Shown in pieces: positions 2,981 through 47,765 of a DNA stretch of 64,000 nt. Positions within the stretch are counted from its first letter, which is position 1. Every line of letters starts with the position of its first letter. The notes under the pieces are model-generated. The model was given only the letters and a program-made list of their open reading frames with translations. It made no database searches and was not told where the DNA came from. Source of the stretch: a virus; the IMG/VR virus record IMGVR_UViG_3300036791_001056, positions 1 to 64,000 of that record; one strand, written 5' to 3'. The position numbers and the translations under genes are program-made.

Positions 2981-3050
2981 TGCTGAGCTGAGCAGAGCAG
3001 ACCTTAGTCTAGTAAACAGCAGTTCAGCATAGATGAGCGCAGCAGCTCAG
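2981..3050 (+). repeat. (NNNAG)n pentamer-phased tract
   Basis: ctgag ctgag cagag cagac cttag tctag ... ttcag catag atgag cgcag. Confidence 0.75.
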
Positions 3051-3105
3051 AATGCGCTGGCGGCGGCCAGGCCTTCTTACCCAGCCGTCGCTGGCGCATT
3101 TCTTG
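3051..3105. terminator. 17-bp hairpin, probable terminator
   Basis: aatgcgctggcggcggc pairs with gccgtcgctggcgcatt (with G-U pairs), followed by tctt; separates two oppositely oriented pentamer tracts. Confidence 0.6.
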
Positions 3106-3109
3106 AACT

Positions 3110-3360
3110 GTGCCTGGCTGAGCTTGCGTAAGCTAAGCTTGACTCAGCTATGCTTGGGTTTAAGCTCAGCTTTGCTGCACTCTGCTGAGGTGGAATGAGC
3201 TCAGGCAGCGAGTAACTTTGACCGCCGCCTGGCTGAGCTTAACTGAGCGCTGCTATGTTATGCTGATCTTTGCTGAGCACTGTTATGTTATGCTATGTTA
3301 TGCTGATCTTTGCGCCAACTGTGGTGCACTCTGCTGTGCTGGGCTTCGTTTAGCTGAGTG
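3110..3360 (-). repeat. (NNNAG)n pentamer-phased tract, minus strand
   Basis: CT recurs every 5 nt on the plus strand (gctgagcttgcgtaagctaagcttgactcagctatgct...). Confidence 0.8.
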
Positions 3361-3553
3361 CCTCTCGGCTCACCTCGAACGTGAACATGATCTCATCATC
3401 ACGCGCCGTGACCGTCACGACGTCATCCGCCGTGCACCTCCCACCCAGCTCACGGTCAATGGCGCCGAGTACCTTGCTCACCTCGGCCCAGTTTGATGGG
3501 CTCGGCAGCGCATCTCACTCGGCTCCTCTCAGTTCCCGCTTTTACCAGCCTGC

Positions 3554-4057
3554 TTATGCTGGTGGCCCATCCCACTGCTGCGCTCCGCTGTCATTCTGCG
3601 CCCGTGAGACGATCCACGCGCCATTGCGCGCGGCAAATGGCATGCTGATGCACTCGTTGCTCAGCACACACCACACGCTGGCGCCGTTACCGAGCGTAAT
3701 CTCATACCACCTCTGCCCATTGCTGGCCGAGCAGTTGCCCTCATACAGCCGAGCATTACCGGCCATTCCCGGGTCGGTGAGGCAGAGCCCGCTCGGCAGC
3801 AGCAGGTTGTAGCCGTCTCCCTGGCTCACGGCGGCAAACTGGAACCACGAGCGGTCTTGGCAGTTCCACAGCACCACATCAGTACCCGCAGCGCCGTTGG
3901 CCGGGTCCGCCGCGCACCAGAGCCCACCCGTCTGGTCGAACGGCATTGAGAATGCGTACGCCCGCGCCGGTGCTGTGACCGTGATCACCGCCAGCACTGC
4001 CATCACGATGACAGTCAGGCCACCCGTCTTAACCCGGCTCATCTTTTGCTCCTCCAT
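3554..4057 (-). CDS. Secreted ricin B-type lectin domain protein
   Basis: Signal peptide ending AYA; SGLCLTD, NGQRW and AQQW (QxW) repeats. Confidence 0.75.
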   Translation of the reverse strand: MEEQKMSRVKTGGLTVIVMAVLAVITVTAPARAYAFSMPFDQTGGLWCAADPANGAAGTDVVLWNCQDRSWFQFAAVSQGDGYNLLLPSGLCLTDPGMAGNARLYEGNCSASNGQRWYEITLGNGASVWCVLSNECISMPFAARNGAWIVSRAQNDSGAQQWDGPPA

Positions 4058-4069
4058 TCACGCGGTTAA

Positions 4070-4490
4070 CCTGTGCTGTGCTCATCTTTAGCTTGACTGG
4101 GCTTGACTGAGCTGAGTTGTCATTACTGAGCTGATCTTTACTATGCTGGACTGAGCTGCGCTTAAGCGCACTTGGTGCTGCTCAACTGTGATTCACTAAA
4201 GTTCTGTGCTGTGATCACCTTGGCTCAGCTTAGCCTCGCTCAGCTGCGGTTAGCTACGCTCGGTCTTAGCTGCGCTGAGGCAGGTATCTGCTGCGGCTAA
4301 TTATACTTAGCTGAGACGCGCTTGACACTGCTTAACTGTGATTCTGTGCTGCTGGGCAGCGCTGTGCTCTGGTGGGAATCAACAGCTGCCTGTGCTCTGG
4401 TCTGCTGAGCTCGGATGGACTCTGCTTAACTGTTCATTGGCTGTGCTGATCTTTACTTCTGCCGCGCTGAGCTCTGCATTGTTATGCTGA
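4070..4490 (-). repeat. (NNNAG)n pentamer-phased tract, about 420 nt
   Basis: Long AT-richer intergenic tract with CT every 5 nt on the plus strand. Confidence 0.85.
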
Positions 4491-4856
4491 GTTGAGGTCG
4501 CCGCGCAGCGCCGCCGTGAGCCCGGCCAGCGCCCCCTCGAGCCGACCCAGCCAGAACTCGCACCGCCGCTCCAGCGGGGCGCCGCAGGCTCCCGGCGGCG
4601 CCAGCTCAGTGCCCCGCAGGTCAGCCAGCGTCTCCTCAGCCACCTCGAGCGCCGAGCTGACCCAGCCATCGGTGCTGATCTCGCACTCCCACGCCGCCAC
4701 GTCACCGGCGCTCATGCTGCGCTCAGCGAGATCCATGGCATCGTGCAGTACTTCCACTCCCTGCAGCGCGATCACGCGCCACGTCGCAGCCAGCCGCTCC
4801 GCTAGCCGCGCCCGGTCTTCGGCAGTCAAGCCTGCCGCGCTAGTACTACTAGCCAC
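4482..4856 (-). CDS. Hypothetical protein
   Basis: ORF with GGAACGGAGGAAGAGG leader/RBS. Confidence 0.6.
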   Translation of the reverse strand: MASSTSAAGLTAEDRARLAERLAATWRVIALQGVEVLHDAMDLAERSMSAGDVAAWECEISTDGWVSSALEVAEETLADLRGTELAPPGACGAPLERRCEFWLGRLEGALAGLTAALRGDLNSA

Positions 4857-9889: not shown

Positions 9890-10572
9890 CGCAGCCCGGC
9901 TACCGGCACCGCATCATCATTCAAGACCGGTCAGGCAGCATGAGATCGATAATCAAAGGTGCGCAGAGCGGCATCAGTGAGTTCTTCAGCTCAGAGGAGG
10001 CCGTGACGGCCGGCCGCGCCACCTACTCGCTGTGGGACTTCGACGCGGAGATCAGGTGCCTGCACCAGCTCGCGCCGCTCAGCGCGGTGCGTGACTATGT
10101 CATCCAGCCCCGGGGCATGACCGCCATGTACGATGCCATCGCCGTCGTGGTCATCAATGAGGGCGAGCTTCTCGCCGCGCTGCCGGAGCACGACCGGCCC
10201 GAGGACGTCACGGTGATCATCGCCAGTGACGGGCTGGAGAACCACTCGGTGAGGTACTCACGCGAGAGTGGCGGCGGGCCGCGCGTTCAAGCGCTGCTGG
10301 TTCACCAGCAGGAGAAGTACGGATGGCGGGTGCTCTACATGGGTACCAATCAAGACGCCTTCCGGGAGGCCGCCACGATTGGCGTCGCGACCCGCGACAC
10401 GCTCAGCTACGTGAACACCAGCGCTGGTGCGGCGAACGCCTGGTCAGCCAGCTCAAGCCTGCTGAGTCGCGCTCCTGTGGCGTCAGCCGCCCCGTGTGGC
10501 CAGGGCTTCGGCTACACGCAGGAGGAGCGCAGCCAGGGTGAGTCAGCCGAGCCGCAGGCACCATCAGCGTGA
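9886..10572 (+). CDS. vWA domain protein
   Basis: MIDAS DRSGSM, GMTAMYDAI, IASDGLEN. Confidence 0.85.
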   Translation: MTQPGYRHRIIIQDRSGSMRSIIKGAQSGISEFFSSEEAVTAGRATYSLWDFDAEIRCLHQLAPLSAVRDYVIQPRGMTAMYDAIAVVVINEGELLAALPEHDRPEDVTVIIASDGLENHSVRYSRESGGGPRVQALLVHQQEKYGWRVLYMGTNQDAFREAATIGVATRDTLSYVNTSAGAANAWSASSSLLSRAPVASAAPCGQGFGYTQEERSQGESAEPQAPSA

Positions 10573-10898
10573 GCGCTCCGCGCGGTCACGGCTACGATCA
10601 TCCGCTCGACAGCACAGGCGTGCTGCGGCTCGTGATGGCTGAGTACACGCGGGCTAAGTTGAAGCACGGTGAGAGCACGCTGGACAGCCCGCTGGCCGGT
10701 GACTTGGTGCGCCTGGCGGCGCTGGTCGAGGAGGTGGGTGAGGCGGCGAGTGAGCTCACTTACGACCGCTCCCGCACCTACGTCACCACTCAGACCGGCG
10801 CGGGCGTGCCGGTCACGGAGAGTCCGAGCCAGCGCCTCAGGAGGGAGCTCATCCAGGTCGCCAACGTGGCGCTGACGTGGGCTAGCATCTTGGAGTAA
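10569..10898 (+). CDS. MazG-like NTP pyrophosphohydrolase
   Basis: LVEEVGEAA...ELIQVA. Confidence 0.75.
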   Translation: MSAPRGHGYDHPLDSTGVLRLVMAEYTRAKLKHGESTLDSPLAGDLVRLAALVEEVGEAASELTYDRSRTYVTTQTGAGVPVTESPSQRLRRELIQVANVALTWASILE

Positions 10899-11075
10899 GC
10901 ACCAGGGAACGCAGCAGAGTTGAGCGACGTGAAGCAGAGACTAGCCAGCCATACCGTAGCATAGACTCAGTTAAGCTACACGAAGCAGAGACCGGTTAAG
11001 CCTAGCTGACCCGTAGCAAAGAGCACGTTAGCATGGTAAAGACTAGCTGAGTAGAGCCCAGTTCAGCAAAGGACC
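10899..11075 (+). repeat. (NNNAG)n pentamer-phased tract
   Basis: cagag ttgag cgacg tgaag cagag actag ... ctgag tagag cccag ttcag caaag. Confidence 0.85.
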
Positions 11076-11111: not shown

Positions 11112-11393
11112 GTGACCGCATACCGCTACCGCCGAGGCCCAGTCCCACCGCCGGCGCTGCCCGAGGCAGCTGATACGTGCTGGGCGGCGCAGCGCGCGGT
11201 GCTGTACCGGTTCATGGAGTGCGATCACGATCCCGGCGCAGCGCGCAGCGTCCTCGCGGCGCTGGGCCTGCTGCGGGAGCGCCCGCGGCGCTTGGACGAT
11301 GACGGGCTCACTGATGCGCGGACCAGCCTGCTGTGGGACCCGGAGGGTGCGATCAGCCGGCCTGAGCACACGCGGCGAGCAGATCGCAGCTAA
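11112..11393 (+). CDS. Hypothetical protein
   Basis: ORF in operon. Confidence 0.45.
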   Translation: MTAYRYRRGPVPPPALPEAADTCWAAQRAVLYRFMECDHDPGAARSVLAALGLLRERPRRLDDDGLTDARTSLLWDPEGAISRPEHTRRADRS

Positions 11394-12033: not shown

Positions 12034-14781
12034 ATGACGTCACCACTCGCTGACGTCCAGCTTCACCTCATCAGCTCCATCGATGACTTGCTGGCGATGA
12101 GAGAGTGGGCCGGGCAGCAGCGCGACGTTCCCGTTGCCTTCGACACCGAGAGCGAGGGCCTGGTCCCGCAGCGCGACCGCCTGAGACTGGCGCAGCTCGG
12201 CGACCTGCGCCACGGCTGGGCGGCGCCGTTCGAGTGGTGCGGCGCCATCATCGAGCTGATCCGCGACATGATCCGGCGGCGCCAGTCCATCGTGGCCCAC
12301 AACTCGGGGTTTGACCACCGCTTCATCGAGCGCTGGCTGGGCTACTCGATCCCGTGGCACCTCGTCCACGACACCATGACCATCGCGGCGCTCGCTGACC
12401 CGACTCGGCCCAAGGGGCTGAAGCCGCTCGCGGCGCGCCTCATCGACCGGAATGCCACGGCGGGGCAGCACCTGCTTGATGAGGGCATGAAGAAGAACGG
12501 GTGGACGTGGGCCACCGTCCCGGCGGACTTCCCGCCGTACTGGTCATACGCCGCGCTGGATCCGGTCCTGACGTGTCACATCTGGGCCAGCCTCGCGCCC
12601 GGTGTCATCGAGACGGCGCCCGAGGCGTACGACCTCGAGAGGTCGGTCACGCCCCTGCTCTCAGCCATGATGGACGCCGGGCTGCTGGTCGACCGGCCGT
12701 ACACGCTCGGTAAGATCGAGGAGCTGGGTAAGTACTCGCGCGCCGCCCGGCGCTGGCTCGAGGATACCCACGGCGTGACCGGGCTCATGTCGGCCCGGCA
12801 GATCCACGCGGCGTTCACCCGGCTGGGCATGGTGATGACCGGTACGACGCCTACTGGCCTGCCGTCTATTACCAAGGAGCTGCTGGCCGCCATCGCGGCC
12901 GCGCCGCCAGGTGAGGTATCAGCCGCGTCACGTGACCTCGCGGTCACCGTTCTCAAGGCGCGCCACGCCGAGAAGATCACCGGCACGTACCTCGAGAACT
13001 TCCTCGAGATGTCGCAGGCAGATGGCGCTGTTCACTGCTCCATACGCCAGCTAGAGGCCCGGACCGGGAGAATGTGCCTGGCTAAGGGCACTATGATCGA
13101 CGGGCCTCGTGATCTGGTGAAGTACCCCACTGGAGTTCCTGTCGAGGACGTCCGGGCAGGAGATTGGGTATACTCATTTGGTAATGACGGTAACGTTAAA
13201 CCACAACGGGTCAAGAAGGTTCACGACAACGGTATTTTGCCAGTTATCCGGCTAGTGTATCGGCGAGCTGGGTTTCACGGCGGTGAGCTGATGGAGTTGA
13301 AGGCAACGCCCGATCACCGGATCGCACTACGGACGGGTGAGTATCGCGAACTACGCGATCTTAAGCCTGGTGATAAGCTCGGCTTTATGACTAGGTCTGT
13401 TTTCGGCGAGAATGGCGTGTTCCGGTCCATGATTGAGTGGAACGGCGGCAAGCGTGTCCACGAGCCCCGAGTGATCTGCCAGCCTACAGCACAAGAGGTA
13501 GTGCACCACAAGAATGAGTTGACGCTCGACCAGCGGCCGAGTAACCTTCAGCCACTGACGATTAAGCATCACACGCAAGAGCACGCTCTCATGAAAATGC
13601 GAGAGTTTACCGCAGAAGAGCTATCTGAGTTGAGTGACAGCGATAGTAATTACGGTCGCATCGCCAGTAAGCTAGGCGTCGGTAAGGGTGCGCTGATTCT
13701 CAGGTGCCGCGAGCTCAGCATACCAGTGCGAACACACCAAGAAAACATTAAGAAACACTGGCAGCAGGAGTGCCCGCTGTCGCCTACAGAGTTCTGGCGG
13801 CGGCTGGAGGAGCTTGGCGGTACTGGGAACGGGACCGGTGGTGGATCTAAGCTAGCACGTGAGCTGGGCGTCAGCTATAACTTGATCAGAAAGTGGAAGA
13901 AGGAGTTCAGCGAACATAATCATGAGGTTGTCGCGGTTATCGATGACGGTGAGAGCTTGCCAGTGTATGATCTTGAAATGGATGGTGAGCCGAACTTCAT
14001 CGCAGGTGAGCTCTGGGTTCATAACAGCTGCGCGGAGCCAAATCTTCAGAACTTGCCCCGCGACGATAAGATCGTCAGGGGCTGCTTCATTCCCCGGCCG
14101 GGTTATGTGTTCATATCGTGCGACTTCAGCCAGATAGAGATGAGAATCGCCGCTGCGCTCAGCGGCGACATGGGCCTCATCGCGGCGTTCGCCGAGTCTG
14201 ACAGCGGTGGCCGCGACTTCTACTCTGGCCTGGCTAGCGAGCTGTTCAGCGAGGAGGTGGAGAAGGAGGACCCGCGGCGGCAAGCGATAAAGTCTATGTC
14301 ATATGCATCCTTGTACGGAGCTGGCCTCGCGAAGCAAGCGCTCACGGCGGGCGTGACCGTGGCACAGCTTAAGCCCATCCGAGACGCGTTCAATGCGCGG
14401 TACCCCGGCCTCATCACGCTCACTAACCTGATCCAGCACGAGGCCAATGAGGGGCTGCAGGCCACCGGGGTGCCGTTCGTCCGCACCTCAACGGGACGGT
14501 ACCTGCCGTGCGACCGCAGCAAGATGTACGCGCTGCTCAACTACAAGATCCAAGCAGAGGCGGGTGAGTGCCTCAAGCGCGGCATCGCCAGCCTGGCTGC
14601 GGCGGGTCTCGCATCAGCCATGCGGGTGCCGGTCCACGACGAGGTGATCTTCGAGGTCCCAGCCCGTGACGCTGAGGAGCTGAAGCAGCTCGCGATGAGC
14701 GCGATGGCTGACACCGAGCGGTACGCGGTGCCGATCACGTGCGCAGCCAAGATCATGCCCGAGCGGTGGGTCAAGGGCTGA
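12034..14781 (+). CDS. Family A DNA polymerase with intein
   Basis: 3'-5' exonuclease FDTESE, AHN, YAALD; polymerase DFSQIEMR, K..SYASLYG, PVHDE. Confidence 0.95.
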   Translation: MTSPLADVQLHLISSIDDLLAMREWAGQQRDVPVAFDTESEGLVPQRDRLRLAQLGDLRHGWAAPFEWCGAIIELIRDMIRRRQSIVAHNSGFDHRFIERWLGYSIPWHLVHDTMTIAALADPTRPKGLKPLAARLIDRNATAGQHLLDEGMKKNGWTWATVPADFPPYWSYAALDPVLTCHIWASLAPGVIETAPEAYDLERSVTPLLSAMMDAGLLVDRPYTLGKIEELGKYSRAARRWLEDTHGVTGLMSARQIHAAFTRLGMVMTGTTPTGLPSITKELLAAIAAAPPGEVSAASRDLAVTVLKARHAEKITGTYLENFLEMSQADGAVHCSIRQLEARTGRMCLAKGTMIDGPRDLVKYPTGVPVEDVRAGDWVYSFGNDGNVKPQRVKKVHDNGILPVIRLVYRRAGFHGGELMELKATPDHRIALRTGEYRELRDLKPGDKLGFMTRSVFGENGVFRSMIEWNGGKRVHEPRVICQPTAQEVVHHKNELTLDQRPSNLQPLTIKHHTQEHALMKMREFTAEELSELSDSDSNYGRIASKLGVGKGALILRCRELSIPVRTHQENIKKHWQQECPLSPTEFWRRLEELGGTGNGTGGGSKLARELGVSYNLIRKWKKEFSEHNHEVVAVIDDGESLPVYDLEMDGEPNFIAGELWVHNSCAEPNLQNLPRDDKIVRGCFIPRPGYVFISCDFSQIEMRIAAALSGDMGLIAAFAESDSGGRDFYSGLASELFSEEVEKEDPRRQAIKSMSYASLYGAGLAKQALTAGVTVAQLKPIRDAFNARYPGLITLTNLIQHEANEGLQATGVPFVRTSTGRYLPCDRSKMYALLNYKIQAEAGECLKRGIASLAAAGLASAMRVPVHDEVIFEVPARDAEELKQLAMSAMADTERYAVPITCAAKIMPERWVKG
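13075..14025 (+). mobile_element. Intein (317 aa) with HNH-type endonuclease
   Basis: RTGRM|CLAKGT...TPDH...WVHN|SCAEPNLQN; internal VHHKNE...RPSNL; lower GC. Confidence 0.92.
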
Positions 14782-14784: not shown

Positions 14785-14853
14785 CACCCAGGCCAAGCAT
14801 CAGCTCAGCTAACCTGAGAACAGCAGAGTCAAGATCAGTATAGCACAGCGCAG
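14785..14853 (+). repeat. (NNNAG)n pentamer-phased tract
   Basis: ccaag catcag ctcag ctaac ctgag aacag cagag tcaag atcag tatag cacag cgcag. Confidence 0.8.
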
Positions 14854-14882
14854 TTTACAACCGGGTCCCCGTGTGATATGAT
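14854..14882 (+). promoter_or_regulatory. Promoter TTTACA-N17-TATGAT
   Basis: Repeated consensus; followed by GAGGAACGGAGG leader. Confidence 0.75.
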
Positions 14883-23311: not shown

Positions 23312-23370
23312 TCCCAGCTCAGCCGAGCATGAGCTAAGCTAAGCCAAGTAGAGCAGCACCCAGCGCAGAC
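23305..23370 (+). repeat. (NNNAG)n pentamer-phased tract
   Basis: cccag ctcag ccgag catgag ctaag ctaag ccaag tagag. Confidence 0.75.
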
Positions 23371-23384
23371 CGAAGGGAGAGCGC

Positions 23385-30341: not shown

Positions 30342-32153
30342 GTGACCTACACCTTCCTGGACTGCCAGGGATTCGCCGGAGGCTTCGCTTGCGGTGCCAC
30401 GCTGGCGGGCTTTAAGCTCATCGGTAAGCAGGAGAACCCGAAGAACTTCGGTGGCCTGCTCATGGAGGCCAACCGAGCGCTGCTCGGTGATGACTGGCAG
30501 ACCCAAGCGTGCGCGCCTGCTGAGTGGGAGCCCATCCGTGCCCACGTGGTGTTCGGGAACCCGCCGTGCTCGGGATTCTCGAACTTCAGCGCCGGGACGG
30601 GTGCGTACGGCATCGACTCCAAGATCAATGACTGCATGTGGGACCTGCACCACTACGCGGCGAGGGTGCGGCCTCATATTGTCATCATGGAGTCTGTGGC
30701 GCAGGCGTTCAGCAAGGGCCTGCCGCTGATGCAAGAGCTGTCGGCTACCCTGCGCCGCGAGTCCGGGCTGGCGTACCGGACCACCCACGTCATTCAAGAC
30801 AACTACTCGGTAGGCGGCTGCACGCTGCGGCGTCGGTACTTTCTCGTGAACAGCCTGGTCCCGTTTGGCGTCGAGAGGTTCGAGCACACGTGGCTGCCCA
30901 CCGTGGGAGACGCCATCAGTGACCTGCGCTCACTTCCCGCATCGTGGGATGCGCAGCGGTACCAGGCGCCGCCGACGTGGTGGTCGCACCAGCTGCGCTC
31001 ACCTGACGGGCTGGTGGACGGGCACAGCGTCATTCCGGTCCCGAACATGCAGCGCCTCTCGGCGCTGCAGCGCGATCACGTGCGGTGGGAGCCGGGTGAC
31101 CGCGAGTCCGAGATGCTGCAGAAGTACTACAATGAGTTTGGTGAGCTGCCGGAAGAATATGATTACCAGTCGCACGCCAGCCACACGCGGCACCTCTCGC
31201 GGGCCAAGCACCTCATTGACCGCGGTCTCGAGACGGGAGGCTACGGCCAGACGCGGTACTGGCCGTGGGACCAGCCCGGCCGCGTCATCACCGGTCACGG
31301 CCCGTACCAGGTCCGGCACCCAGACAACAGACCGTACACGCACCGTGAGACCGCGCGCATCATGGGATTCCCAGATGACTGGGTGTGCGGCTCGCTGCGG
31401 CACATCAAGGGCATGCACCAGTACTGGGGCAAGGGAACGTCAGTTCACCCGGCGCTGTGGATCACGAGCTGGGCGCGCGAGTCGCTGGACGGGAACCCGG
31501 GCAGCCTGCAGGGTCAAGTGCTGCCTGACGGCAGCCATCTCATCGATGTCTCACCTGACTGGAAGGCGGCTGCTCGGCGGCTGGGCATCGCTGAGCAGTT
31601 CGGGCTGGCGGTCCGAGACGCGCAGACCCGGGTGCTGCCGCCGGCTGCGCCAGAGTCCGAGGAAGAGGAGAGGATCGAAGTGAGTGACGAGGAGATCAGT
31701 GACCTGCTCGATGCTGAGCTGCTGATGCATCCTGATGACGATCCGGAAGAGCCAGCTGAGCTAGATCACCAGCGCAGCGCGGACTTCAGCGATGAGGCGG
31801 CTGAGCTGCCTGAGTGGGAGCGGGAGCTGCTGGCGCGCCAGCACGTGCCGCCTCCTGACGCACTGGTGGTTCCCGAGACTCTCACTACTGGCGCAGACAA
31901 CAAGCGCTACCCAGGGTGGGAGTATGACCGGAGCCCGGCGAAGGGACCCACGTGGCGACCGGAGGTCCTGGACCGGCTGGTTGACCTAGCGCAGCTGAGC
32001 ACCGGGGCCGACGCTAAGCCGGGGCAGGTCGCCGTCGTCATCAACAGCGCAGCGTTCCGAGACACGCACGGGGCCCAAGAGCTGCGGGGCTGCGCGTCTT
32101 ATCACGTCACACAGGCCCGGGCGCGGTTGGCGCAAGAACGATCACCAGGGTGA
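30342..32153 (+). CDS. C5 cytosine DNA methyltransferase with acidic C-terminal extension
   Basis: GFAGGF (motif I variant), GNPPCSGFS, MESV, RRRYF, RETARIMGFPDDW. Confidence 0.85.
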   Translation: MTYTFLDCQGFAGGFACGATLAGFKLIGKQENPKNFGGLLMEANRALLGDDWQTQACAPAEWEPIRAHVVFGNPPCSGFSNFSAGTGAYGIDSKINDCMWDLHHYAARVRPHIVIMESVAQAFSKGLPLMQELSATLRRESGLAYRTTHVIQDNYSVGGCTLRRRYFLVNSLVPFGVERFEHTWLPTVGDAISDLRSLPASWDAQRYQAPPTWWSHQLRSPDGLVDGHSVIPVPNMQRLSALQRDHVRWEPGDRESEMLQKYYNEFGELPEEYDYQSHASHTRHLSRAKHLIDRGLETGGYGQTRYWPWDQPGRVITGHGPYQVRHPDNRPYTHRETARIMGFPDDWVCGSLRHIKGMHQYWGKGTSVHPALWITSWARESLDGNPGSLQGQVLPDGSHLIDVSPDWKAAARRLGIAEQFGLAVRDAQTRVLPPAAPESEEEERIEVSDEEISDLLDAELLMHPDDDPEEPAELDHQRSADFSDEAAELPEWERELLARQHVPPPDALVVPETLTTGADNKRYPGWEYDRSPAKGPTWRPEVLDRLVDLAQLSTGADAKPGQVAVVINSAAFRDTHGAQELRGCASYHVTQARARLAQERSPG

Positions 32154-36674: not shown

Positions 36675-37223
36675 ATGACCAGACAGCGTGTATGGGTGGA
36701 TGAAGATTTGATCTCAGCAATATCATCATCTAGCACACTCGCTGAGGTATGTAGGAAGCTGAATCTCAAGCTAGCCGGTAGTACTTACGTAATGATGCGT
36801 AGGCACATCAAACGACTTGACGTTGACATTAGTCACTTTACTGGTCAAGCATGGATGCTTGGCCGAGTAAAAAGCGTGGAACAAGCACGATCTGATTTGC
36901 TGCCAAGAATGACGAAAAACTCCACGCCATTTGGCTATCGGCGGTTGATTGCCTCTGATTTTAAAGAAGCTAAATGTGAAGAATGTGAGCTAACTGAATG
37001 GCGTGGGCAGCCGCCACCATTGCAGCTCGATCACATCGATGGTGATCGAACGAACAATGTACTGGATAATCTGCGAATTTTGTGCGCAAACTGCCATATG
37101 CTTACAGAAACGTGGGGTTTTAAACGAAGACATGACGGCCTAGCCCAATCTGGCAGGAGGCACACGGCTCAGACCCGTGGATGTGTCGGTTCGAGTCCGA
37201 CGGTCGTCACGCAAGGAGAGTGA
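36675..37223 (+). CDS. HNH endonuclease
   Basis: CEEC..WRG..LQLDHIDGDRTNN..NLRILCANCH; lower GC. Confidence 0.9.
   Translation: MTRQRVWVDEDLISAISSSSTLAEVCRKLNLKLAGSTYVMMRRHIKRLDVDISHFTGQAWMLGRVKSVEQARSDLLPRMTKNSTPFGYRRLIASDFKEAKCEECELTEWRGQPPPLQLDHIDGDRTNNVLDNLRILCANCHMLTETWGFKRRHDGLAQSGRRHTAQTRGCVGSSPTVVTQGE
37134..37209 (+). tRNA. tRNA-Leu(CAG), short variable region
   Basis: cacgg-ctcagac-ccgtg. Confidence 0.85.
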
Positions 37224-37734: not shown

Positions 37735-37805
37735 AGCATGGTCTAACAGAGCTGAGTACAGCGAACAGAAGCAGTGCGTAGTGAAGTATAGCGCAGATCA
37801 GTCAC
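37735..37805 (+). repeat. (NNNAG)n pentamer-phased tract
   Basis: cagag ctgag tacag cgaac agaag cagtg cgtag tgaag tatag cgcag atcag. Confidence 0.75.
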
Positions 37806-38021: not shown

Positions 38022-38097
38022 TGCACGCGGTCATCTGGTTGGTGGATCCCGTCTGATAAGCGGGGTGTGCTGGGTTCGACTCCCAGGCGTGCAACCA
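38022..38097 (+). tRNA. tRNA-Ile(GAT)
   Basis: Cloverleaf; encoded CCA. Confidence 0.85.
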
Positions 38098-38305: not shown

Positions 38306-38377
38306 GCCCCGCTAGCGCAACGGCAGAGCGGCGGACTTTTAATCCGACAGTTCGGGGTTCGAGTCCCCGGCGGGGCA
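38306..38377 (+). tRNA. tRNA-Lys(TTT)
   Basis: Cloverleaf. Confidence 0.9.
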
Positions 38378-38379
38378 CG

Positions 38380-38585
38380 CTCAGAAAGAGCTGAGCTCAG
38401 ACTAGCTGGTATCAGTGAAGCAGTGCTAATCTCAGCGCAGCGCGGCATACCTCAGCTCAGTGCGATGGAGCATAGCAGCGAAAAGCTCAGGTCCCAGCGC
38501 ACCAAAGAGCAGCTTACCGCAGCTCAGCTGACGAGAGCAAAGATTAGGAAAGCCGAGATTAGCTTAGTTGTAACCTTAGCTCAGC
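38380..38585 (+). repeat. (NNNAG)n pentamer-phased tract between tRNAs
   Basis: ctgag ctcag actag ... gagag caaag attag gaaag ccgag attag cttag; resumes at 38665-38722. Confidence 0.88.
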
Positions 38586-38659
38586 GTGCCACTGGCGCAA
38601 TCGGACAGCGCTGCCGTCTTCTAAGCGGTTGGTTCCCGGTTCGAGTCCGGGGTGGCGCA
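38586..38659 (+). tRNA. tRNA-Arg(TCT)
   Basis: Cloverleaf. Confidence 0.88.
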
Positions 38660-38728
38660 CCTTGCGAAGCTAAGTGGAGTTAAGCGGTGCTTAGTCCAGC
38701 AGAGTAAAGTTAAGCGAAGTACTTATGC

Positions 38729-38800
38729 GCGCTGATAGTGCAGCGGATAGCACGGCGACCTCCTAAGTCGCAGGCCCGAGTCCGAATCTCGGTTGGCGCA
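38729..38800 (+). tRNA. tRNA-Arg(CCT)
   Basis: Cloverleaf. Confidence 0.88.
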
Positions 38801-38842
38801 CCCAGTAAGATGTGGTATAATTGTTAACAGTAGTCTCCGTGA

Positions 38843-40270: not shown

Positions 40271-40272
40271 CC

Positions 40273-40456: not shown

Positions 40457-40535
40457 GCCAGATGTGGGCGACGGATCGCCCAGCTGACTGTAAATCAGCC
40501 GCCTCGGCAGCCCCCGTTCGACCCGGGGATCTGGC
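40457..40535 (+). tRNA. tRNA-Tyr(GTA)
   Basis: gctga-ctgtaaa-tcagc; variable arm; 6-bp D stem. Confidence 0.8.
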
Positions 40536-40603
40536 TCGCAGATGGTGACCTGCACAAGCTCCGCTCTCCGAGGTTGAATCCGTCGGCTCGGAGAGCGGAC
40601 CAC

Positions 40604-40673
40604 GCTTCCGGTAACGGACAGTACCCTCGTCCCTCCGAAGGATGGGTGCCCGGTTCGACTCCGGGCGGAAGTA
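40604..40673 (+). tRNA. tRNA-Arg(CCG)
   Basis: cgtcc-ctccgaa-ggatg; weak D arm. Confidence 0.75.
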
Positions 40674-40690
40674 CGGCGGCTGCGGAACTT

Positions 40691-40749
40691 GGGCGTAAGG
40701 TGGCTGGTTGCCACGGCGCGCGAGGCGGGTTCGATTCCCGCTGCGTCCA
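40691..40749 (+). ncRNA. Anticodon-less tRNA-Ala-like mini RNA
   Basis: gggcgta/tgcgtcc with G3:U70 and A73; D-like hairpin; perfect T arm. Confidence 0.6.
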
Positions 40750-40801
40750 CGCAGCAGCGACGTGGCTGTGAACTCGCATGCGCACCGCGCCGCTGCTCCA
40801 T

Positions 40802-40872
40802 CTCACCATGACCGAGAGGCGAGGTACGCGCCTGCAAAGCGCGGCACGCGGGTTCAAATCCCGCTGGTGAGT
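40802..40872 (+). tRNA. tRNA-Cys(GCA)
   Basis: Cloverleaf; U73. Confidence 0.9.
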
Positions 40873-40881
40873 CGGAACCTA

Positions 40882-40955
40882 GCACGGGTCGAAGCTGACC
40901 GGTTATCAGATCACATCTGGCCAAGAAATACCGGGAAGCGCTCACGCATCTGTGC
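40882..40955 (+). ncRNA. Y-RNA-like Y1 (minimal)
   Basis: gcacgggt/atctgtgc stem; GGGTCGAAG; CCGGTTAT..CCGG. Confidence 0.7.
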
Positions 40956-40966
40956 CCAGACCTCAA

Positions 40967-41038
40967 GCGTGGGTCGAATGACCGCCGGTTATCATCACGT
41001 TAGTTATGTCCGGTGATCACGTACTGCTGCATCCACGT
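40967..41038 (+). ncRNA. Y-RNA-like Y2 (minimal)
   Basis: gcgtgggt/atccacgt stem; same scaffold. Confidence 0.7.
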
Positions 41039-41047
41039 CAGCGTCAC

Positions 41048-41126
41048 CCACAGGGTCGAAGACAGCTGGGTTATCTGCGCCAGCAGGTCACCGTCTAACC
41101 CAGTTGCCACCTACATCATCCTGTGG
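41048..41126 (+). ncRNA. Y-RNA-like Y3 (minimal)
   Basis: ccacagggt/atcctgtgg stem; inner stem covaries (ctgggtta/taacccag). Confidence 0.7.
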
Positions 41127-41140
41127 TAGAGTTACTTACA

Positions 41141-41205
41141 TGAGCGGGTCGATGCTCACCGGTTACCGGTAAAGTGATCCGGTGAGCGCTCAACTCATCC
41201 GCTCA
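41141..41205 (+). ncRNA. Y-RNA-like Y4 (minimal)
   Basis: tgagcgggt/atccgctca stem. Confidence 0.7.
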
Positions 41206-41255
41206 CGCCCGTCACGGTCTGGTACAACTGAATTAGACTTCACCCCCCAAGTTTG

Positions 41256-41395
41256 CGGCGTGGGCGCGGGTCGAACGTCAGCCGGTTATCTTTCTGCAAA
41301 AAGGAAACAGTAGGTTCGATTCTTATCAGTCTCTTCGGAGGCTGGGTATGGCACCAGTAAACCCGGTTGCGATCATCACATCCGCGGCTGCGCCG
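41256..41395 (+). ncRNA. Y-RNA-like Y5, permuted tRNA module with GCA anticodon-like loop
   Basis: Order: anticodon hairpin, T arm, UUCG-capped acceptor stem, D-like arm. Confidence 0.75.
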
Positions 41396-41405
41396 GAGGC
41401 TTGGG

Positions 41406-41550
41406 TGGTCTGGTGGGGCGAAGTCACGTCGGTTATCTCTTTTGGGAAGAGGTAGTGCAGGTTCGATTCCTGCTCGGCCAGCTCACTGGCCGATAGTGTA
41501 ACGGCAGCACGCTAAACGTCCGGCAGGCATCATCATCTCCACCAGGACCA
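41406..41550 (+). ncRNA. Y-RNA-like Y6, permuted tRNA module with TGG anticodon-like loop
   Basis: Anticodon hairpin, T arm gcagg-ttcgatt-cctgc, closed acceptor stem, D arm. Confidence 0.8.
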
Positions 41551-41914: not shown

Positions 41915-43594
41915 ATGATCGTCATGACGAGTCGTGACGCGCTCGCCGGGTTCAACCCGGCAGTCACGCCGCAGACCCAGCCAGCTCCGGGACGCACCGA
42001 CATGGTGAAGGGACCTGCTGGCGGGTACGGCTTCCAGAAGGACCGGTGGAACCAGCTCGAGGACTTCTTGATTCTCGGGACCACCGGCGGCAGCTACTAC
42101 CTCGGCCAGGACCAGCTGACTCAGCAGAACGTGAGCGTGGTCATCGAGCTAGCCAAGTCGCACGGTGCGCAGCTCGTGCAGCTCGTGGTTGAAATTTCAA
42201 CCTCAGTCCCACCGCGCGCTCCGAAGAACCGGGGATGCCTGTACGCGCTGGCTGCCGCATCAGCGTTCGGTGACCCAGCTGCTGTGCAGGCCGTCAAGGC
42301 GGCGCTGCCTCAAGTCGCGCGGACCACCGATCACCTGGCTGCGTTCTTCGGCTACCGCAAGCTGCTGAAGAGCAAGACCACCGCGCGTGGGACGTCACCG
42401 GTCGCTGGTCGCGCCTACCGCTCGGCGCTCGCTGCGTGGTTCACGGCGAGCGACGTCAATGACGTCGCGTTCCGGGCCTGCAAGGCCCGCCAGCGGAAGA
42501 CTCCGGCCGGCGAGGCGTTCGACCTGCGGGACGCGATCCGCATGGCGCACCCGGCGAGCGACACGCCCGAGCGGCAGCTGCTCTTCCGGTGGCTGGCCGG
42601 CAAGGCCGATGACGCAGAGGCAGCGCGGGTGCTGCCGGCGGTTGACAACTTCATCACGGCGCAGGCCGTGAAGACTCCGGCTGAGGCGATCCGCGTGGTT
42701 ACCGACCGGCGCGTTCCCTGGGAGTTCTTGCCCTCCGCTGTCCTCGCAGACAGGGGGGTGTGGGAGGCGCTCACCGAGACCATCGGCGTGACAGCGCTGA
42801 TCCGGAACCTGGCGCGAATGACCCGCATCGGGACTCTCGCTCCATTCGCCGCGGCCAACGTTACGGTGATCCGGCGGCTCACCAGCGCAGAGGCACTGGC
42901 GAGGGGGCGCATTCACCCGATGGACGTGTACCTCGCGCTGCGGGTCTACGCGGCCGGCACTAGCCAGCCGAATCCCAAGGCTGAGCGCTCCACCTGGACT
43001 CCGGTCCCGGAGATCCTCGATGCGCTCGAGGTCGCGTACGACCTCAGCCACGGCCACGTGCAGCCGTCAGGTAAGAAGTTCGTCCTCGCGGTAGACTCAT
43101 CAGGCTCGATGACGTATGGCCACGTGTCATTCACCGGTGCTAACCTGGGTCAGGCATATCACGTCGCATCAGCCATCGCTACGATGATTAAGCGCATTGA
43201 AGGCGCGAACGTCCACGTCGTTGATGTAGACACGGCAGTCCGGAACTCACGGATCACCCCACGCACCAACCTGCGCGAGATCTCATCGTGGCGAGCTAGT
43301 GGCGGAGGCACTGACCTCTCGCTGCCCATGACGTACGCGATGCAGTACGATCTCCGGGTCGACGGCTTCGCGCTGCTCACGGACAACGCGACGTGGGCCG
43401 GGCACATTCACCCATTCCAGGCGCTCGAGCAGTACCGCCAGCGGTACAACCCCGGCGCGCGGTTCGTGGACATCAGCATGGTGCCTTCCGGGTTCAGCGT
43501 CGCTGATCCCAAGCATGAGGGCGTGATCAACATGACCGGGATGGACGCGTCACTGCCCGTGGCGCTGGCCGGGTACCTCCGTGCTGCGGGGTGA
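41915..43594 (+). CDS. Ro60/Rsr TROVE-domain RNA-binding protein
   Basis: AGGYGF..D.WNQLEDFLILGTTGGSYY, ALIRNLARMT, RIHP, vWA domain DSSGSM/GGTD/TDN; likely start at 41924. Confidence 0.93.
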   Translation: MIVMTSRDALAGFNPAVTPQTQPAPGRTDMVKGPAGGYGFQKDRWNQLEDFLILGTTGGSYYLGQDQLTQQNVSVVIELAKSHGAQLVQLVVEISTSVPPRAPKNRGCLYALAAASAFGDPAAVQAVKAALPQVARTTDHLAAFFGYRKLLKSKTTARGTSPVAGRAYRSALAAWFTASDVNDVAFRACKARQRKTPAGEAFDLRDAIRMAHPASDTPERQLLFRWLAGKADDAEAARVLPAVDNFITAQAVKTPAEAIRVVTDRRVPWEFLPSAVLADRGVWEALTETIGVTALIRNLARMTRIGTLAPFAAANVTVIRRLTSAEALARGRIHPMDVYLALRVYAAGTSQPNPKAERSTWTPVPEILDALEVAYDLSHGHVQPSGKKFVLAVDSSGSMTYGHVSFTGANLGQAYHVASAIATMIKRIEGANVHVVDVDTAVRNSRITPRTNLREISSWRASGGGTDLSLPMTYAMQYDLRVDGFALLTDNATWAGHIHPFQALEQYRQRYNPGARFVDISMVPSGFSVADPKHEGVINMTGMDASLPVALAGYLRAAG

Positions 43595-45532: not shown

Positions 45533-45804
45533 AGCGCCGCCACCGGTCATTCTCATACCAGCCGGGTCACCTACCTCCCACGTGGAGTCCGGAGTGGGAG
45601 AACACACCTGAGCAGTACGCGCAGCAGGTTCAGCTGCGCCGCGAGCTGATCGCGGCGGGTAACCCGGGCATGAGCGGGCGGGACGTGAAGATAGCCGAAG
45701 TGGTCTCCCGGCTCGCGGGAGACGCCGGGCTCACCGACAGCTCGGTGATGTTCGTTGTAAGGCAGCTGGCGGCCGCGCTGGATGAAGTTGAGGATTCCAC
45801 GTGA
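45529..45804 (+). CDS. Hypothetical protein
   Basis: GTGA overlap start. Confidence 0.5.
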   Translation: MKRRHRSFSYQPGHLPPTWSPEWENTPEQYAQQVQLRRELIAAGNPGMSGRDVKIAEVVSRLAGDAGLTDSSVMFVVRQLAAALDEVEDST

Positions 45805-45853
45805 TCTCAGTTAAAACGGCTGCCGGCATCAGCGCCGGTGCCGTCAAAGGAGG

Positions 45854-46132
45854 ATGACAGTGTACGGTCAGAATCACAGGTTCTGCCAGCGGTGCGGTCA
45901 CGTCGTGCCCATGGGTCGCCCCATGTGCGGCGGGTGCCGGACGCCATTCAGCTCGCTGATGGCATATGACCTGGCGTTCGACCAGGGCATGGCTGAGCCG
46001 GGCATCGGGTTCGACCCGTGGGACGGTCAGGTGGCCATCGACATCCCGGGCACCGATCTCGCCTTCGAGCCGGGCACGGGTGAGATCGACCTGGACCTGG
46101 GTGGCATCGACATCCCGCTGGGTGACTGGTGA
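45854..46132 (+). CDS. Zn-ribbon protein with acidic tail
   Basis: RBS AGGAGG; two CxxC motifs. Confidence 0.65.
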   Translation: MTVYGQNHRFCQRCGHVVPMGRPMCGGCRTPFSSLMAYDLAFDQGMAEPGIGFDPWDGQVAIDIPGTDLAFEPGTGEIDLDLGGIDIPLGDW

Positions 46133-46551
46133 ATCAGCACACAATGAGCGATGACATTGACGTTACCCCGGCACGGGTGATCCGTGAGAACTTCCGCTGG
46201 CTGGCCCCCGTCGCGATCGTTGGCTGCACGCTCATCGGTCTGTTCGGGGTGTTCTGCCTCGTGGCGTGGCCACTGCACGCCTGGCTCTGGCACCAGCAGG
46301 TCAACCTGCAGAACAGCGTGTACCAGGACAGCCCGGGAGCGCAGCAGGCCGACATCGACCAGCTGGAGAGTGCTGTTCAAGCCATCTCCGGATCGGTCGA
46401 CGGCAGCCAGATCATCGCTGACGTGAACCAGGCCTGCAAGTTCGCCACCCGGATCACGATCATGCCGCCTGGTGACGCTCCCTGGGTGGCGCAGAACTGC
46501 CTAGCGGGGTCCATCTCGCCGAGCAGCACATACAGCAGCGCAGGAAGCTGA
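46129..46551 (+). CDS. Membrane protein
   Basis: One TM helix. Confidence 0.65.
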   Translation: MNQHTMSDDIDVTPARVIRENFRWLAPVAIVGCTLIGLFGVFCLVAWPLHAWLWHQQVNLQNSVYQDSPGAQQADIDQLESAVQAISGSVDGSQIIADVNQACKFATRITIMPPGDAPWVAQNCLAGSISPSSTYSSAGS

Positions 46552-46564
46552 GAGGGAGACAGGA

Positions 46565-47317
46565 ATGAGGGACTGGGAGAAGAGGCTCAGCCGGGTCGGT
46601 GCAGCGGCTGGCGCCGCGGTCATGGCAACCGCCTGGGTGACCGCGTGCAGTCAGTCACAGAACGGGGGCACGGCACTGGATCACAACGACTCCAGTGCGA
46701 TCTCCACGCACTACCTGACGGTCCAGCCGCCGTACTACCCCACGGGCATCTCGATCTACCGCGAGAACCTGAACGCCATCGAGGCTGCTCATGTGCTCGG
46801 CCTGAACACCACGAGCTTCTTCTGGCAGAACGGCCGGACGGACCCGTACTTCTGGTGCCCGAGCCGGGGCGGAGCGGTGCCGAACACCGCGCAGCTGACG
46901 AACCCGCAGTACGTGCAGCCGGATCCCAACGCGTCCAACGGGTCAGTCATCATCAGCAACATGGACCCGGACGGCGTGTACCCGCCGACGAACAGCAGCG
47001 GGACCGCTGTCGTGTGCATCGACAGCCGGGGACGCGACTACTTCGCGTACGCTGAGGGTGAGGTGACGCAGTTCTCAGCCGCGGCCACGTGGGACTTCTC
47101 AGCCAATCACGGTCACGGCGGGATCGTGGTCACGGGCGCCCCGGCGATGCCGGTCTGTGAGGTGACGTACGCGAGCGTCCCGCAGTCAGGTGGCGGCACT
47201 AAGCGTGAGGCCGTCACAGAGTGCACCGCGCCCAAGGGCTCGGTCGCTCCCCGCGTGGGTGCGGCTGACCAGGCACCGGCACCAGTACCGGTACTCACAC
47301 CAACCGCGCCCAGCTGA
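46565..47317 (+). CDS. Lipoprotein
   Basis: Lipobox VTAC; NMDPDGVY motif. Confidence 0.7.
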   Translation: MRDWEKRLSRVGAAAGAAVMATAWVTACSQSQNGGTALDHNDSSAISTHYLTVQPPYYPTGISIYRENLNAIEAAHVLGLNTTSFFWQNGRTDPYFWCPSRGGAVPNTAQLTNPQYVQPDPNASNGSVIISNMDPDGVYPPTNSSGTAVVCIDSRGRDYFAYAEGEVTQFSAAATWDFSANHGHGGIVVTGAPAMPVCEVTYASVPQSGGGTKREAVTECTAPKGSVAPRVGAADQAPAPVPVLTPTAPS

Positions 47318-47640
47318 ACACCCAGCTGTCTGCGGAGACGGAGAGCAGCACGCCGTTCTTCTGCGGCAGCAACAGCTCGGAGAGCAAGTGCACTCAGATG
47401 ACTGTGCTCATCAGCAGCGTTGCGCCGTCAGATCCCGCGGTCCAGCAGCTGTACAACCAGCAGATCGCCGCTGAGCAGGCTGTGGCCGTTAACCAGGCAC
47501 GGCTCAAGGCAGCGCAAGAGCTGTACGGTGCGTACGCTCAGTACTTCCTCGGCCTGCAGGACCTGGCCACCGAGTGCCGGACCTGCACCATCTTCGTCGG
47601 GACACCCGCCGGCATTCCCGTGGTCAAGTCTGGCAAGTAG
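47311..47640 (+). pseudogene. Possible C-terminal remnant of a band-7/SPFH-like protein
   Basis: In-frame PFFCGSN..C followed by a coiled coil; N-terminus absent. Confidence 0.35.
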
Positions 47641-47659
47641 TGCGTCTCTGGTTCGCATC

Positions 47660-47765
47660 ATTCATAGCAAAGCCAAGTGCGTCATCGTGGAGCTGAGTTA
47701 AGTGGAGTTGAGTTCAGCGCACTGAAGTACAGCACAGCTCAGCAGGGCAAAGTCAGAGCTAAATG
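47660..47765 (+). repeat. (NNNAG)n pentamer-phased tract
   Basis: tggag ctgag ttaag tggag ttgag ttcag cgcac tgaag tacag cacag ctcag. Confidence 0.85.

What the first reader, a model, noticed from the sequence alone, without database searches (positions are those of the whole stretch)
2981..47765. Dispersed (NNNAG)n tracts with 5-nt phasing, mostly oriented with transcription
Seen: about ten intergenic tracts (2981-3050+, 3110-3360-, 4070-4490-, 10899-11075+, 14785-14853+, 23305-23370+, 37735-37805+, 38380-38585+, 38665-38722+, 47660-47765+). AG recurs every 5 nt, with occasional slips, for roughly 10-80 units while the other three positions vary freely, so these are not simple tandem duplications. 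AG is on the sense strand in all but the first tract, and tracts often start right after a stop codon or tRNA. Established: Bacillus TRAP wraps RNA through (G/U)AG triplets spaced by 2 nt, the same period. Inference: loading sites for an oligomeric or ring-shaped RNA- or ssDNA-binding protein (antitermination, processing, sponge), or a phased DNA-architecture signal. No cognate protein is identified here.
Basis: partly seen in the sequence, partly recalled or inferred. Interest (0 to 1): 0.82.

Follow-up and report, generated by a model that had tools for sequence, protein, structure and literature searches.

The report
Phage VIPR guide-RNA arrays, AGY type
The 5-nt-phased AG tracts are guide-RNA (vrRNA) arrays of a phage VIPR system, a CRISPR-like RNA-guided silencing system first described in 2026, here with an AGY instead of GGY scaffold and with arrays scattered over the whole genome, some lying between tRNA genes.

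Summary
AG recurs every 5 nt in 12 intergenic regions of the window and 21 in the 146,953-bp phage genome. That gives 267 high-power windows against 2.2 in shuffles, and only AG/CT shows period 5. The unit is A-G-[C .60/T .24/A .16/G .01]-N-N, on the transcribed strand in all regions but one.

The cognate protein lies outside the window, at genome 140930-141553(-). It is a 207-aa RAMP whose family profile matches PDB 36pp "SUSP1 Vipr protein" over its full length (E 2.5e-48). A vap1-like gene follows it, and the longest perfect repeat run lies between the two.

Homologues of this one protein sit beside AGY-phased arrays in 10 otherwise unrelated viral contigs (GC 0.35-0.66). The tracts are therefore vrRNA arrays of a VIPR system (bioRxiv 2026). 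One Vipr protomer binds each 5-nt repeat, and the NN bases read target DNA.

Three things differ from the characterised systems:
- The scaffold is AGY, and the two residues that contact G1 in SUSP1 Vipr are replaced.
- Arrays are dispersed genome-wide, whereas four other AGY-type phages keep them at one locus.
- Two inter-tRNA spacers are filled by arrays.

No targets and no RNA data were found. First readers of a neighbouring window of this genome noted the same gene and arrays.

The parts
2986..3045 (+). Solo AGY/NN array of 12 in-phase units (10 with AG). It is the only array antisense to its neighbouring genes. A terminator-like hairpin follows at 3081-3094.
3115..3154 (-).
3300..3375 (-). 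AGY/NN array of 12 in-phase units. The stretch 3155-3299 between this and the previous array is looser AG-phased sequence with an internal duplication.
4068..4276 (-). Multi-guide AGY/NN array region with about 32 AG-anchored units in three in-phase runs. It runs up to the ribosome-binding site of gene 3554-4057(-).
4387..4473 (-). AGY/NN array (13 AG-anchored units, 9 in phase) just downstream of the stop of gene 4482-4856(-). A sigma-70-like promoter match (4328 to 4300, - strand) separates it from the 4068-4276 arrays.
10913..11074 (+). AGY/NN array region with three in-phase runs of 7, 8 and 12 units, between genes 10569-10898 and 11112-11393.
14802..14856 (+). AGY/NN array of 11 units (8 perfect in a row), 21 nt after the PolA stop at 14781. 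A promoter-like site at 14854-14882 follows it.
23316..23371 (+). AGY/NN array of 8-10 units, between the stop of gene 22514-23311 and the next start at 23385.
37750..37804 (+). AGY/NN array of 11 units inside the tRNA block, between tRNA-Leu 37134-37210 and tRNA-Ile 38022-38097.
38389..38570 (+). Two AGY/NN runs (21 and 13 units) that fill the 207-nt spacer between tRNA-Lys 38306-38378 and tRNA-Arg 38586-38661.
38668..38722 (+). AGY/NN array of 11 units that fills the 67-nt spacer between tRNA-Arg(tct) 38586-38661 and tRNA-Arg(cct) 38729-38802. tRNA processing would give this guide defined ends.
47666..47745 (+). AGY/NN array of 16 in-phase units, between genes 47398-47640 and 47807-48715.

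Best explanation
The tracts are vrRNA guide arrays of a phage-encoded VIPR (Viral Interference Programmable Repeat) system. Shown here: the genome encodes a Vipr RAMP protein at genome 140930-141553(-), outside the window. A vap1-like accessory gene (140185-140742, -) follows it. Both are embedded in the strongest arrays. The same protein family sits next to AGY-phased arrays in unrelated phages. Inferred from the characterised SUSP1 and P. fulva systems: the arrays are transcribed with their neighbours and cut into guides of roughly 10-20 units. Vipr protomers then polymerise on each guide, one per 5-nt unit. Each protomer sequesters the fixed A-G-Y and exposes the two variable bases. The exposed dinucleotides pair with double-stranded target DNA, skipping every third target base, and this silences transcription of competing phages, satellites or prophages. 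Particular to this phage: the scaffold is AGY rather than GGY. This goes with replacement of the two residues that read G1 in SUSP1 Vipr (H17 becomes D27, D177 becomes N189). About 26 in-phase runs are spread over 21 intergenic regions of the genome. Three of those regions lie inside the tRNA block, where RNase P and RNase Z processing of the flanking tRNAs would release them (inferred).
For: Protein: P0001 matches PDB 36pp_D 'SUSP1 Vipr protein' with phmmer E 3.4e-6. The family profile A1 matches it at E 2.5e-48 over profile positions 1-192 and chain residues 1-190. tblastn hits the vipr locus of phiSUSP1 itself. The AF2 model has pLDDT 87.3 and pTM 0.80, and its best folds are Csm3/Cas7 RAMPs at E about 1e-6. 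A C-terminal G-loop is conserved, with invariant R151 and R191 matching SUSP1 R138 and R179. Co-occurrence: when every ORF of this genome was compared with tract-bearing viral loci found by pattern alone, only this protein recurred. It was found in 10 loci of GC 0.35-0.66, next to the array on the same strand. Array form: fixed trinucleotide plus variable dinucleotide, runs of 7-23 units, as published for vrRNAs. My caller recovers the published GGY arrays in SUSP1 and finds GGY arrays in Trine, LittleE, MakoManhole, Medea1 and LESphi2. Locus: the longest perfect run (10-11 units) lies directly downstream of vipr. The next gene is homologous to the gene that follows vipr in other phages, weakly including SUSP1 vap1. 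Conservation: relatives L108 (Vipr 34% identical) and L225 (81% identical) keep arrays in the same intergenic slots with different NN. As in the published systems, no self-target appears above the shuffled-guide null (paper). Scaffold change: all 11 A-dominant systems lack His at position 17 and an acidic residue at position 177. All 11 systems with D/E177, including 4 tested blind, have G1.
Against: There is no expression or processing evidence. The only run holding this DNA is a soil metagenome. No target was found for any guide. No conserved 3' tail like that of type II vrRNAs was detected, so guide boundaries are unknown. In SUSP1, changing GGY to AGY abolishes silencing, so AGY use here depends on an untested change of protein specificity. 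The residue rule is only partly predictive: four blind-tested Viprs without an acidic 177 use A/T or G/T at position 1, not A. Most arrays lie far from vipr in intercistronic or 3'-UTR positions, which would also suit a cis role on mRNAs.
Confidence: 0.88

Rival explanations
1. The dispersed tracts act in cis on the phage's own mRNAs. Vipr or another protein coats the 3'-UTR or intercistronic repeats to control processing, stability, termination or translation of neighbouring genes. They would not be released as trans-acting DNA guides. Only the arrays at the vipr locus would be true guides.
For: Most arrays start within a few nt of a stop codon and end at the next ribosome-binding site, on the sense strand. 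No targets were found. No conserved tail was detected. Four other AGY-type phages keep their arrays at the vipr locus only.
Against: Dispersed and vipr-adjacent arrays share the same unit logo and run lengths. NN is as variable in the dispersed arrays as in the vipr-adjacent ones, which a pure loading site does not need. Arrays between tRNAs have no neighbouring mRNA to regulate. Solo vrRNAs away from vipr are documented as functional guides. No TRAP-like protein is present.
Confidence: 0.06
2. Some or all of the tracts are decoys. These would be vrRNA-like RNAs that titrate or redirect the Vipr of a competing phage, or this phage's own, instead of silencing a specific rival gene.
For: Satellites and VIPR-null phages carry solo vrRNAs that redirect a rival's VIPR complex. 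There are about 26 runs, and no targets were found for them.
Against: The phage has an intact vipr and a vap-like gene of its own. A decoy against GGY-type rivals would need GGY scaffolds, but only about 12% of units here begin with G. Decoy guides in the literature still have defined targets, namely host REP elements.
Confidence: 0.04
3. The tracts are degenerate pentanucleotide microsatellites or a DNA-level signal, such as primase GCT sites or phased DNA structure, with no RNA function.
For: Simple AGNNN microsatellites are common in viral contigs. The densest tracts lie near the primase-helicase gene and a divergent promoter region.
Against: Units are highly diverse, with AG(Y) fixed and NN free. 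Polarity follows transcription. Arrays persist in the same slots in relatives while NN changes. They co-occur with one protein family across unrelated phages. PolA relatives L001 and L002 have no tracts in the syntenic 18-22 kb.
Confidence: 0.02

Closest known systems
Type II VIPR of Escherichia phage SUSP1 and the P. fulva prophage (bioRxiv 10.64898/2026.04.26.720920, .720927 and 10.64898/2026.10.15.759431)
   Same: The Vipr protein is homologous (profile E 2.5e-48). A vap1-like gene follows it. Arrays of 5-nt units with a fixed trinucleotide and a variable dinucleotide lie upstream and downstream of vipr. No self-targets were found.
   Different: The scaffold is AGY rather than GGY, and GGY>AGY inactivates the SUSP1 guide. 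The G1-contact residues H17 and D177 are replaced by D27 and N189. No conserved pseudoknot tail was found. There are 21 array regions spread over 147 kb rather than about 4 vrRNAs at one locus. The host is probably an actinobacterium, and the genome comes from a soil metagenome.
Non-canonical VIPR arrays: NNNGG, YNNNG and NNNNG, and GAC/NN, CAC/NN, WGT/NN and TGH/NN (bioRxiv 10.64898/2026.10.21.760802)
   Same: They have 5-nt periodic arrays with an altered fixed trinucleotide next to a Vipr-like fold. YNNNG and WGT/NN overlap with the AGY units seen here.
   Different: An A-dominant AGC/AGT scaffold (A 0.85-1.0 at position 1) is not named in the texts I could read, and the figures are not held. 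Those reports describe arrays beside the effector gene, not genome-wide dispersal or tRNA-flanked guides.
Solo or orphan vrRNAs of SUSP1-family phages and F5 satellites
   Same: These are vrRNAs located away from, or without, a vipr gene.
   Different: They occur as 1-2 solo vrRNAs at the former vipr locus or on satellites. Here about 18 extra array regions coexist with an intact vipr in one genome.
Class 1 CRISPR Cas7/Csm3 backbone filaments on crRNA
   Same: The fold is RAMP: RRM core, G-loop and thumb. One protomer binds per short RNA segment.
   Different: The period is 6 nt on a contiguous spacer. CRISPR systems also have repeat-spacer arrays of 60-79 nt, cas operons and adaptation genes, none of which is present here.
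Bacillus TRAP and its (G/U)AG repeats
   Same: AG recurs about every 5 nt, and one subunit binds per repeat.
   Different: No TRAP domain is present in the genome. The constrained neighbouring base is 3' of AG, not 5'. Runs of up to 23 units, and regions of 30+ units, exceed an 11-mer ring.
Engineered polycistronic tRNA-gRNA arrays (own knowledge, not checked in the library)
   Same: A guide RNA is placed exactly between two tRNAs, so RNase P and RNase Z define its ends. Here those are the arrays at 38389-38570 and 38668-38722.
   Different: That design is synthetic and made for Cas9 guides. This would be a natural arrangement, and processing is inferred, not shown.

Membership tests
VIPR system | Vipr protein: a minimal RAMP with RRM core, thumb and C-terminal glycine-rich loop | tested here: met
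   The family profile matches PDB 36pp_D 'SUSP1 Vipr protein' at E 2.5e-48 over its full length. The single sequence gives E 3.4e-6. The AF2 model has pLDDT 87 and its best folds are Csm3/Cas7. The G-loop and the R151 and R191 equivalents of SUSP1 R138 and R179 are invariant.
VIPR system | Tandem 5-nt repeats with a fixed trinucleotide alternating with a hypervariable dinucleotide, about 9-16 units per guide | tested here: met
   The logo is A 1.0, G 1.0, C/T/A .60/.24/.16, then two variable positions. There are 26 in-phase runs of 7-23 units. The period-5 signal far exceeds shuffles.
VIPR system | Canonical GGY scaffold | tested here: not met
   Position 1 is A in 85% of units at the vipr locus and G in 12%. 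Related non-canonical consensus motifs are accepted in the literature, so this defines a variant and does not exclude membership.
VIPR system | Arrays flank the vipr gene on its strand | tested here: met
   Arrays at 141580-141663, 140782-140918 and 140053-140102, all on the - strand, bracket vipr and the next gene.
VIPR system | Adjacent vipr-accessory (vap) gene | tested here: met
   The gene at 140185-140742(-) is homologous to the gene downstream of vipr in Trine, LittleE, MakoManhole and prophiBWHA-1. The match to SUSP1 vap1 is weak (E 5e-5, and 1e-7 for the L108 orthologue, in a 10-sequence database). It belongs to phrog_5926.
VIPR system | Invariant structured 3' tail capping each guide (type II) | tested here: inconclusive
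   No shared non-scaffold k-mer or boundary motif was found among 19 array regions. Other AGY-type loci do show tail-like punctuation, for example L066. The types differ in array architecture.
VIPR system | Guides expressed as small RNAs that co-purify with Vipr | not testable with these tools
   No RNA run is listed for this DNA. The only holder is a soil metagenome.
VIPR system | NN strings match rival-element DNA under the 1-nt-skip rule, with no self-targets | tested here: inconclusive
   No self-target exceeds the shuffled-guide null, as published. No external target was found in the held loci or in exact-seed scans of viral, genome and metagenome collections, where hits were at chance level.
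TRAP-type RNA-binding attenuation | TRAP (TrpBP, PF02081) protein and 9-11 (G/U)AG triplets with 2-3 nt spacers | tested here: not met
   PF02081 is absent from the genome although the control genomes are detected. The base 5' of AG is unconstrained and the base 3' of AG is Y. Runs are longer than one ring.
CRISPR-Cas | Repeat-spacer array with a period of about 60-79 nt, plus cas operon | tested here: not met
   The period is 5 nt. The RAMP stands alone with one accessory gene. Rfam finds only tRNAs in the window.

The most novel reading that the evidence does not exclude
This phage lineage has turned VIPR from a one-locus device into a genome-wide guide repertoire. About 26 AGY-type guides ride in the 3' UTRs and intercistronic gaps of early and middle operons and in tRNA spacers, so they are made in step with different transcription units and are trimmed by the tRNA-processing enzymes. 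The switch from G to A at scaffold position 1 is encoded by loss of the His17/Asp177 pair. That switch would insulate the system from GGY-type VIPRs of competitors. The guides may also reach beyond rival phages to host genes.
Probability: 0.3. Interest if true: 0.75.

Novelty: new variant of a known kind. Interest (0 to 1): 0.5.

Why it matters
It also adds three testable points to VIPR biology:
- A natural AGY scaffold goes with substitutions at the two G1-contact residues, which suggests a specificity code for orthogonal guide/protein pairs.
- One complete 147-kb phage genome carries about 26 guide runs at 21 sites, far more dispersed than in the described loci.
- Guides sit exactly between tRNAs, a natural counterpart of engineered tRNA-guide arrays.

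The Vipr family is very large (7,570 clusters at 50% identity), so scaffold variants may be common.

Tried and rejected
- **Nucleotide searches** of the PolA gene and of tract 4040-4500 against isolated phages gave no match.
- **PolA relatives** L001 and L002 have no tracts, so they were no help for comparison.
- **Rfam** at gathering threshold found only tRNAs. No hammerhead or other ribozyme lies between guides.
- **TRAP**: PF02081 is absent.
- **Ro60** (41915-43594), a ring-shaped RNA binder, was considered as the cognate protein and dropped once Vipr was found.
- **Primase-site, RNase E-site and Rho-site ideas** were considered from memory only and dropped for lack of fit to the logo.
- **AGCAGAG and AGCAAAG as guide boundaries**: both are enriched in arrays, but they are ordinary in-phase units (NN = AG or AA) at variable positions.
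- **Alignment of syntenic arrays** between this genome and L225 gave 67-74% identity. Repeat composition inflates that figure, so I did not use it as a measure of NN turnover.
- **Self-target search**: under skip rules 0-2 the own genome gave nothing above the null. The 2 Mb of held loci also gave nothing above the null.
- **Exact-seed target scans**:
  - The viral scan with the 9-unit seed of the tRNA-flanked guide gave one sequence in two GC-0.46 contigs, scoring 20/22, which is consistent with chance.
  - The viral scan with the post-vipr guide gave 0 hits.
  - The viral scan with the 8-unit seed of the 14802 guide gave 26 hits, close to a rough chance estimate (about 30, from a guessed collection size). 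The shared peptide motif among them is forced by the pattern itself.
  - The genome-contig scan gave 7 hits, all in low-GC unrelated organisms.
  - Two metagenome scans gave 0 hits.
- **Vipr relatives in reference prokaryote genomes**: alignment A1 was too divergent to seed the scan. The closer alignment A2 found no relative.
- **RNA evidence**: no RNA holder is listed for this DNA.
- **Simple residue rule** 'non-acidic 177 means A1': rejected by the blind test, where two loci use A/T and two use G/T.

Full report
**Observation**

The window is the first 64 kb of a complete-looking 146,953-bp phage genome with 64% GC. Its features:
- a family-A DNA polymerase with an intein
- a PrimPol-DUF927 primase-helicase
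- 39 tRNA genes
- a Ro60 orthologue

It has no nucleotide match among isolated phages, and its PolA is under 40% identical to actinophage polymerases. The only public run holding the DNA is a soil metagenome.

All ten reported tracts are real. The period-5 power of AG exceeds 6.5 in 267 sliding windows, against 2.2 in Markov shuffles. Only AG and its complement CT behave this way, and not at periods 4, 6 or 7.

Genome-wide I find 26 chains in 21 regions, with 304 AG-anchored units. Twelve of those regions are in the window. Nearly all lie outside gene calls.

The unit is A-G-[C .60/T .24/A .16/G .01]-N-N, that is, AGY/NN. Polarity follows the local direction of transcription. The only exception is 2986-3045(+).

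**Finding the cognate protein**

I scanned IMG/VR for AGHNN x8 and AGYNN x9. Besides plain microsatellites, this returned about 25-30 loci with diverse-unit AGY-phased arrays at GC 0.35-0.69.

I then compared every ORF of this genome with those loci by tblastn. One protein recurred: genome 140930-141553(-), 207 aa, named P0001. It was found in 10 loci, next to the array and on its strand.

In this genome the same gene is bracketed by arrays, and the longest perfect run (10-11 units) is directly downstream of it.

P0001 has no Pfam domain and belongs to phrog_4652, of unknown function. It does match PDB 36pp 'SUSP1 Vipr protein' (E 3.4e-6). A 15-sequence profile matches that chain end to end at E 2.5e-48. 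tblastn also hits the vipr locus of phage SUSP1 directly.

The AlphaFold model (pLDDT 87) is a RAMP, and its best solved folds are Csm3/Cas7.

The next gene, 140185-140742(-), is homologous to the gene that follows vipr in Trine, LittleE, MakoManhole and prophiBWHA-1. It matches SUSP1 vap1 weakly.

**What is known**

Three 2026 preprints describe VIPR systems.
- Vipr is a phage-borne minimal RAMP.
- vrRNAs consist of 9-16 units of a fixed GGY and a variable NN, plus a 3' tail.
- One protomer binds each repeat in a right-handed helical filament.
- The NN bases pair with double-stranded DNA, skipping every third target base.
- Binding silences transcription of rival satellites and prophages.

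Alternative scaffolds (NNNGG, YNNNG, NNNNG) and solo vrRNAs are mentioned in these papers. A fourth preprint lists further non-canonical units: GAC, CAC, WGT and TGH.

My caller reproduces the published SUSP1 arrays. It also finds GGY arrays next to the Vipr homologues of Trine, LittleE, MakoManhole, Medea1 and LESphi2. The tracts in the window are therefore vrRNA arrays.

**What differs here**

*1. The scaffold is AGY.*

Position 1 is A in 85-100% of units in 9 of 11 AGY-type loci, and 75-80% in the other two. In SUSP1, changing GGY to AGY abolishes silencing.

The SUSP1 structure paper states that G1 is read by H17 and D177.
- In all 7 GGY systems I examined, these positions are H and D/E.
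- In all 11 AGY systems they are N/D/S/A and N/G/S/T.
- The G2 and Y3 contacts, R138 and R179, are invariant.

A tree needs at least two changes of scaffold type, but with weak support.

I then tested the rule blind on eight further Vipr contigs chosen by residue class.
- All four with an acidic residue at 177 use G1, even with N or S at position 17.
- The four without an acidic residue use A/T (two loci) or G/T (two loci).

So 'acidic 177 means strict G1' held in 11 of 11 systems. 'Non-acidic means A' is not general.

*2. The arrays are dispersed.*

I applied one stringent pattern (AGYNN x7, at most 1 mismatch).
- This genome is hit at five loci between 4 kb and 141 kb.
- Four other AGY-type phage records, two of them complete, are each hit at a single locus of at most 1.7 kb.
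- The reversed-pattern controls give zero hits.

The close relative L225 keeps arrays in the same slots, including one after a DUF6915 gene about 6 kb from vipr, with different NN.

*3. Arrays fill tRNA spacers.*

Arrays fill the 207-nt and 67-nt spacers between tRNA-Lys, tRNA-Arg(tct) and tRNA-Arg(cct). Another lies between tRNA-Leu and tRNA-Ile. Release by RNase P and RNase Z is an inference.

I found no mention of tRNA-flanked or genome-wide dispersed arrays in the texts I could search. The figures are not held.

**Limits**

There are no RNA data. No conserved 3' tail was found, so guide boundaries are unknown.

No targets were found:
- The own genome, under skip rules 0-2, gives nothing above the null.
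- The 2 Mb of held loci give nothing above the null.
- Six exact-seed scans of the large collections gave only chance-level hits.

The absence of self-targets agrees with the published systems. The failure to find external targets says little, because the scans required exact seeds and the host is unknown.

**Verdict**

The feature is a VIPR system, so the kind is already known. This instance is a variant in three ways: the AGY scaffold with matching protein substitutions, a very large dispersed guide set, and tRNA-embedded guides.

First-stage notes on the neighbouring window of this genome had flagged the RAMP gene and the arrays independently. I reached the same reading before seeing them and tested it here.

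Noticed in passing
window 41915-43594 (+), and 40457-41482: A Ro60 orthologue (TROVE plus Ro60 vWA domains) sits directly after the tRNA block. ARAGORN's odd calls just upstream are an 81-nt 'tRNA-Phe(aaa)' at 40457-40537 and a 'tRNA-Pro(tgg)' at 41406-41482.
   Followed up: no
window 12034-14781 (+): The family-A DNA polymerase is interrupted by an intein. Intein_splicing and an HTH match lie between the exonuclease and polymerase domains.
   Followed up: no
L066:2114-2846 (-) (IMGVR_UViG_3300028805_000210): In this unrelated GC-0.50 phage, each AGY run of about 12 units ends in a conserved element of about 16 nt (AAAGTTATATCCCAAC), repeated about every 78 nt. This looks like a tail or handle punctuation, which the window's arrays lack.
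   Followed up: partly
L255:1415-1569, L257:241-719, L261:1153-1487: Other Vipr loci use further scaffolds. L255 and L257 use [A/T]GY units, and their Viprs have C or S at position 17 and T at 177. L261 uses [G/T]GT units, each guide ending GGCAA-TGAGG, and its Vipr has Q at 17 and T at 177.
   Followed up: partly
window 3155-3299 (-): Between two clean arrays lies a looser AG-phased stretch with a direct duplication of about 45 nt (the motif ...AAAGATCAGCATAACATAGCA... occurs twice). This suggests arrays grow by local duplication.
   Followed up: no
window 30342-32153 (+) and 26021-27538 (+): A C5 cytosine DNA methylase and a MobA-like nucleotidyltransferase fused to a phosphotransferase-like domain may be DNA-modification or anti-restriction functions.
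   Followed up: no
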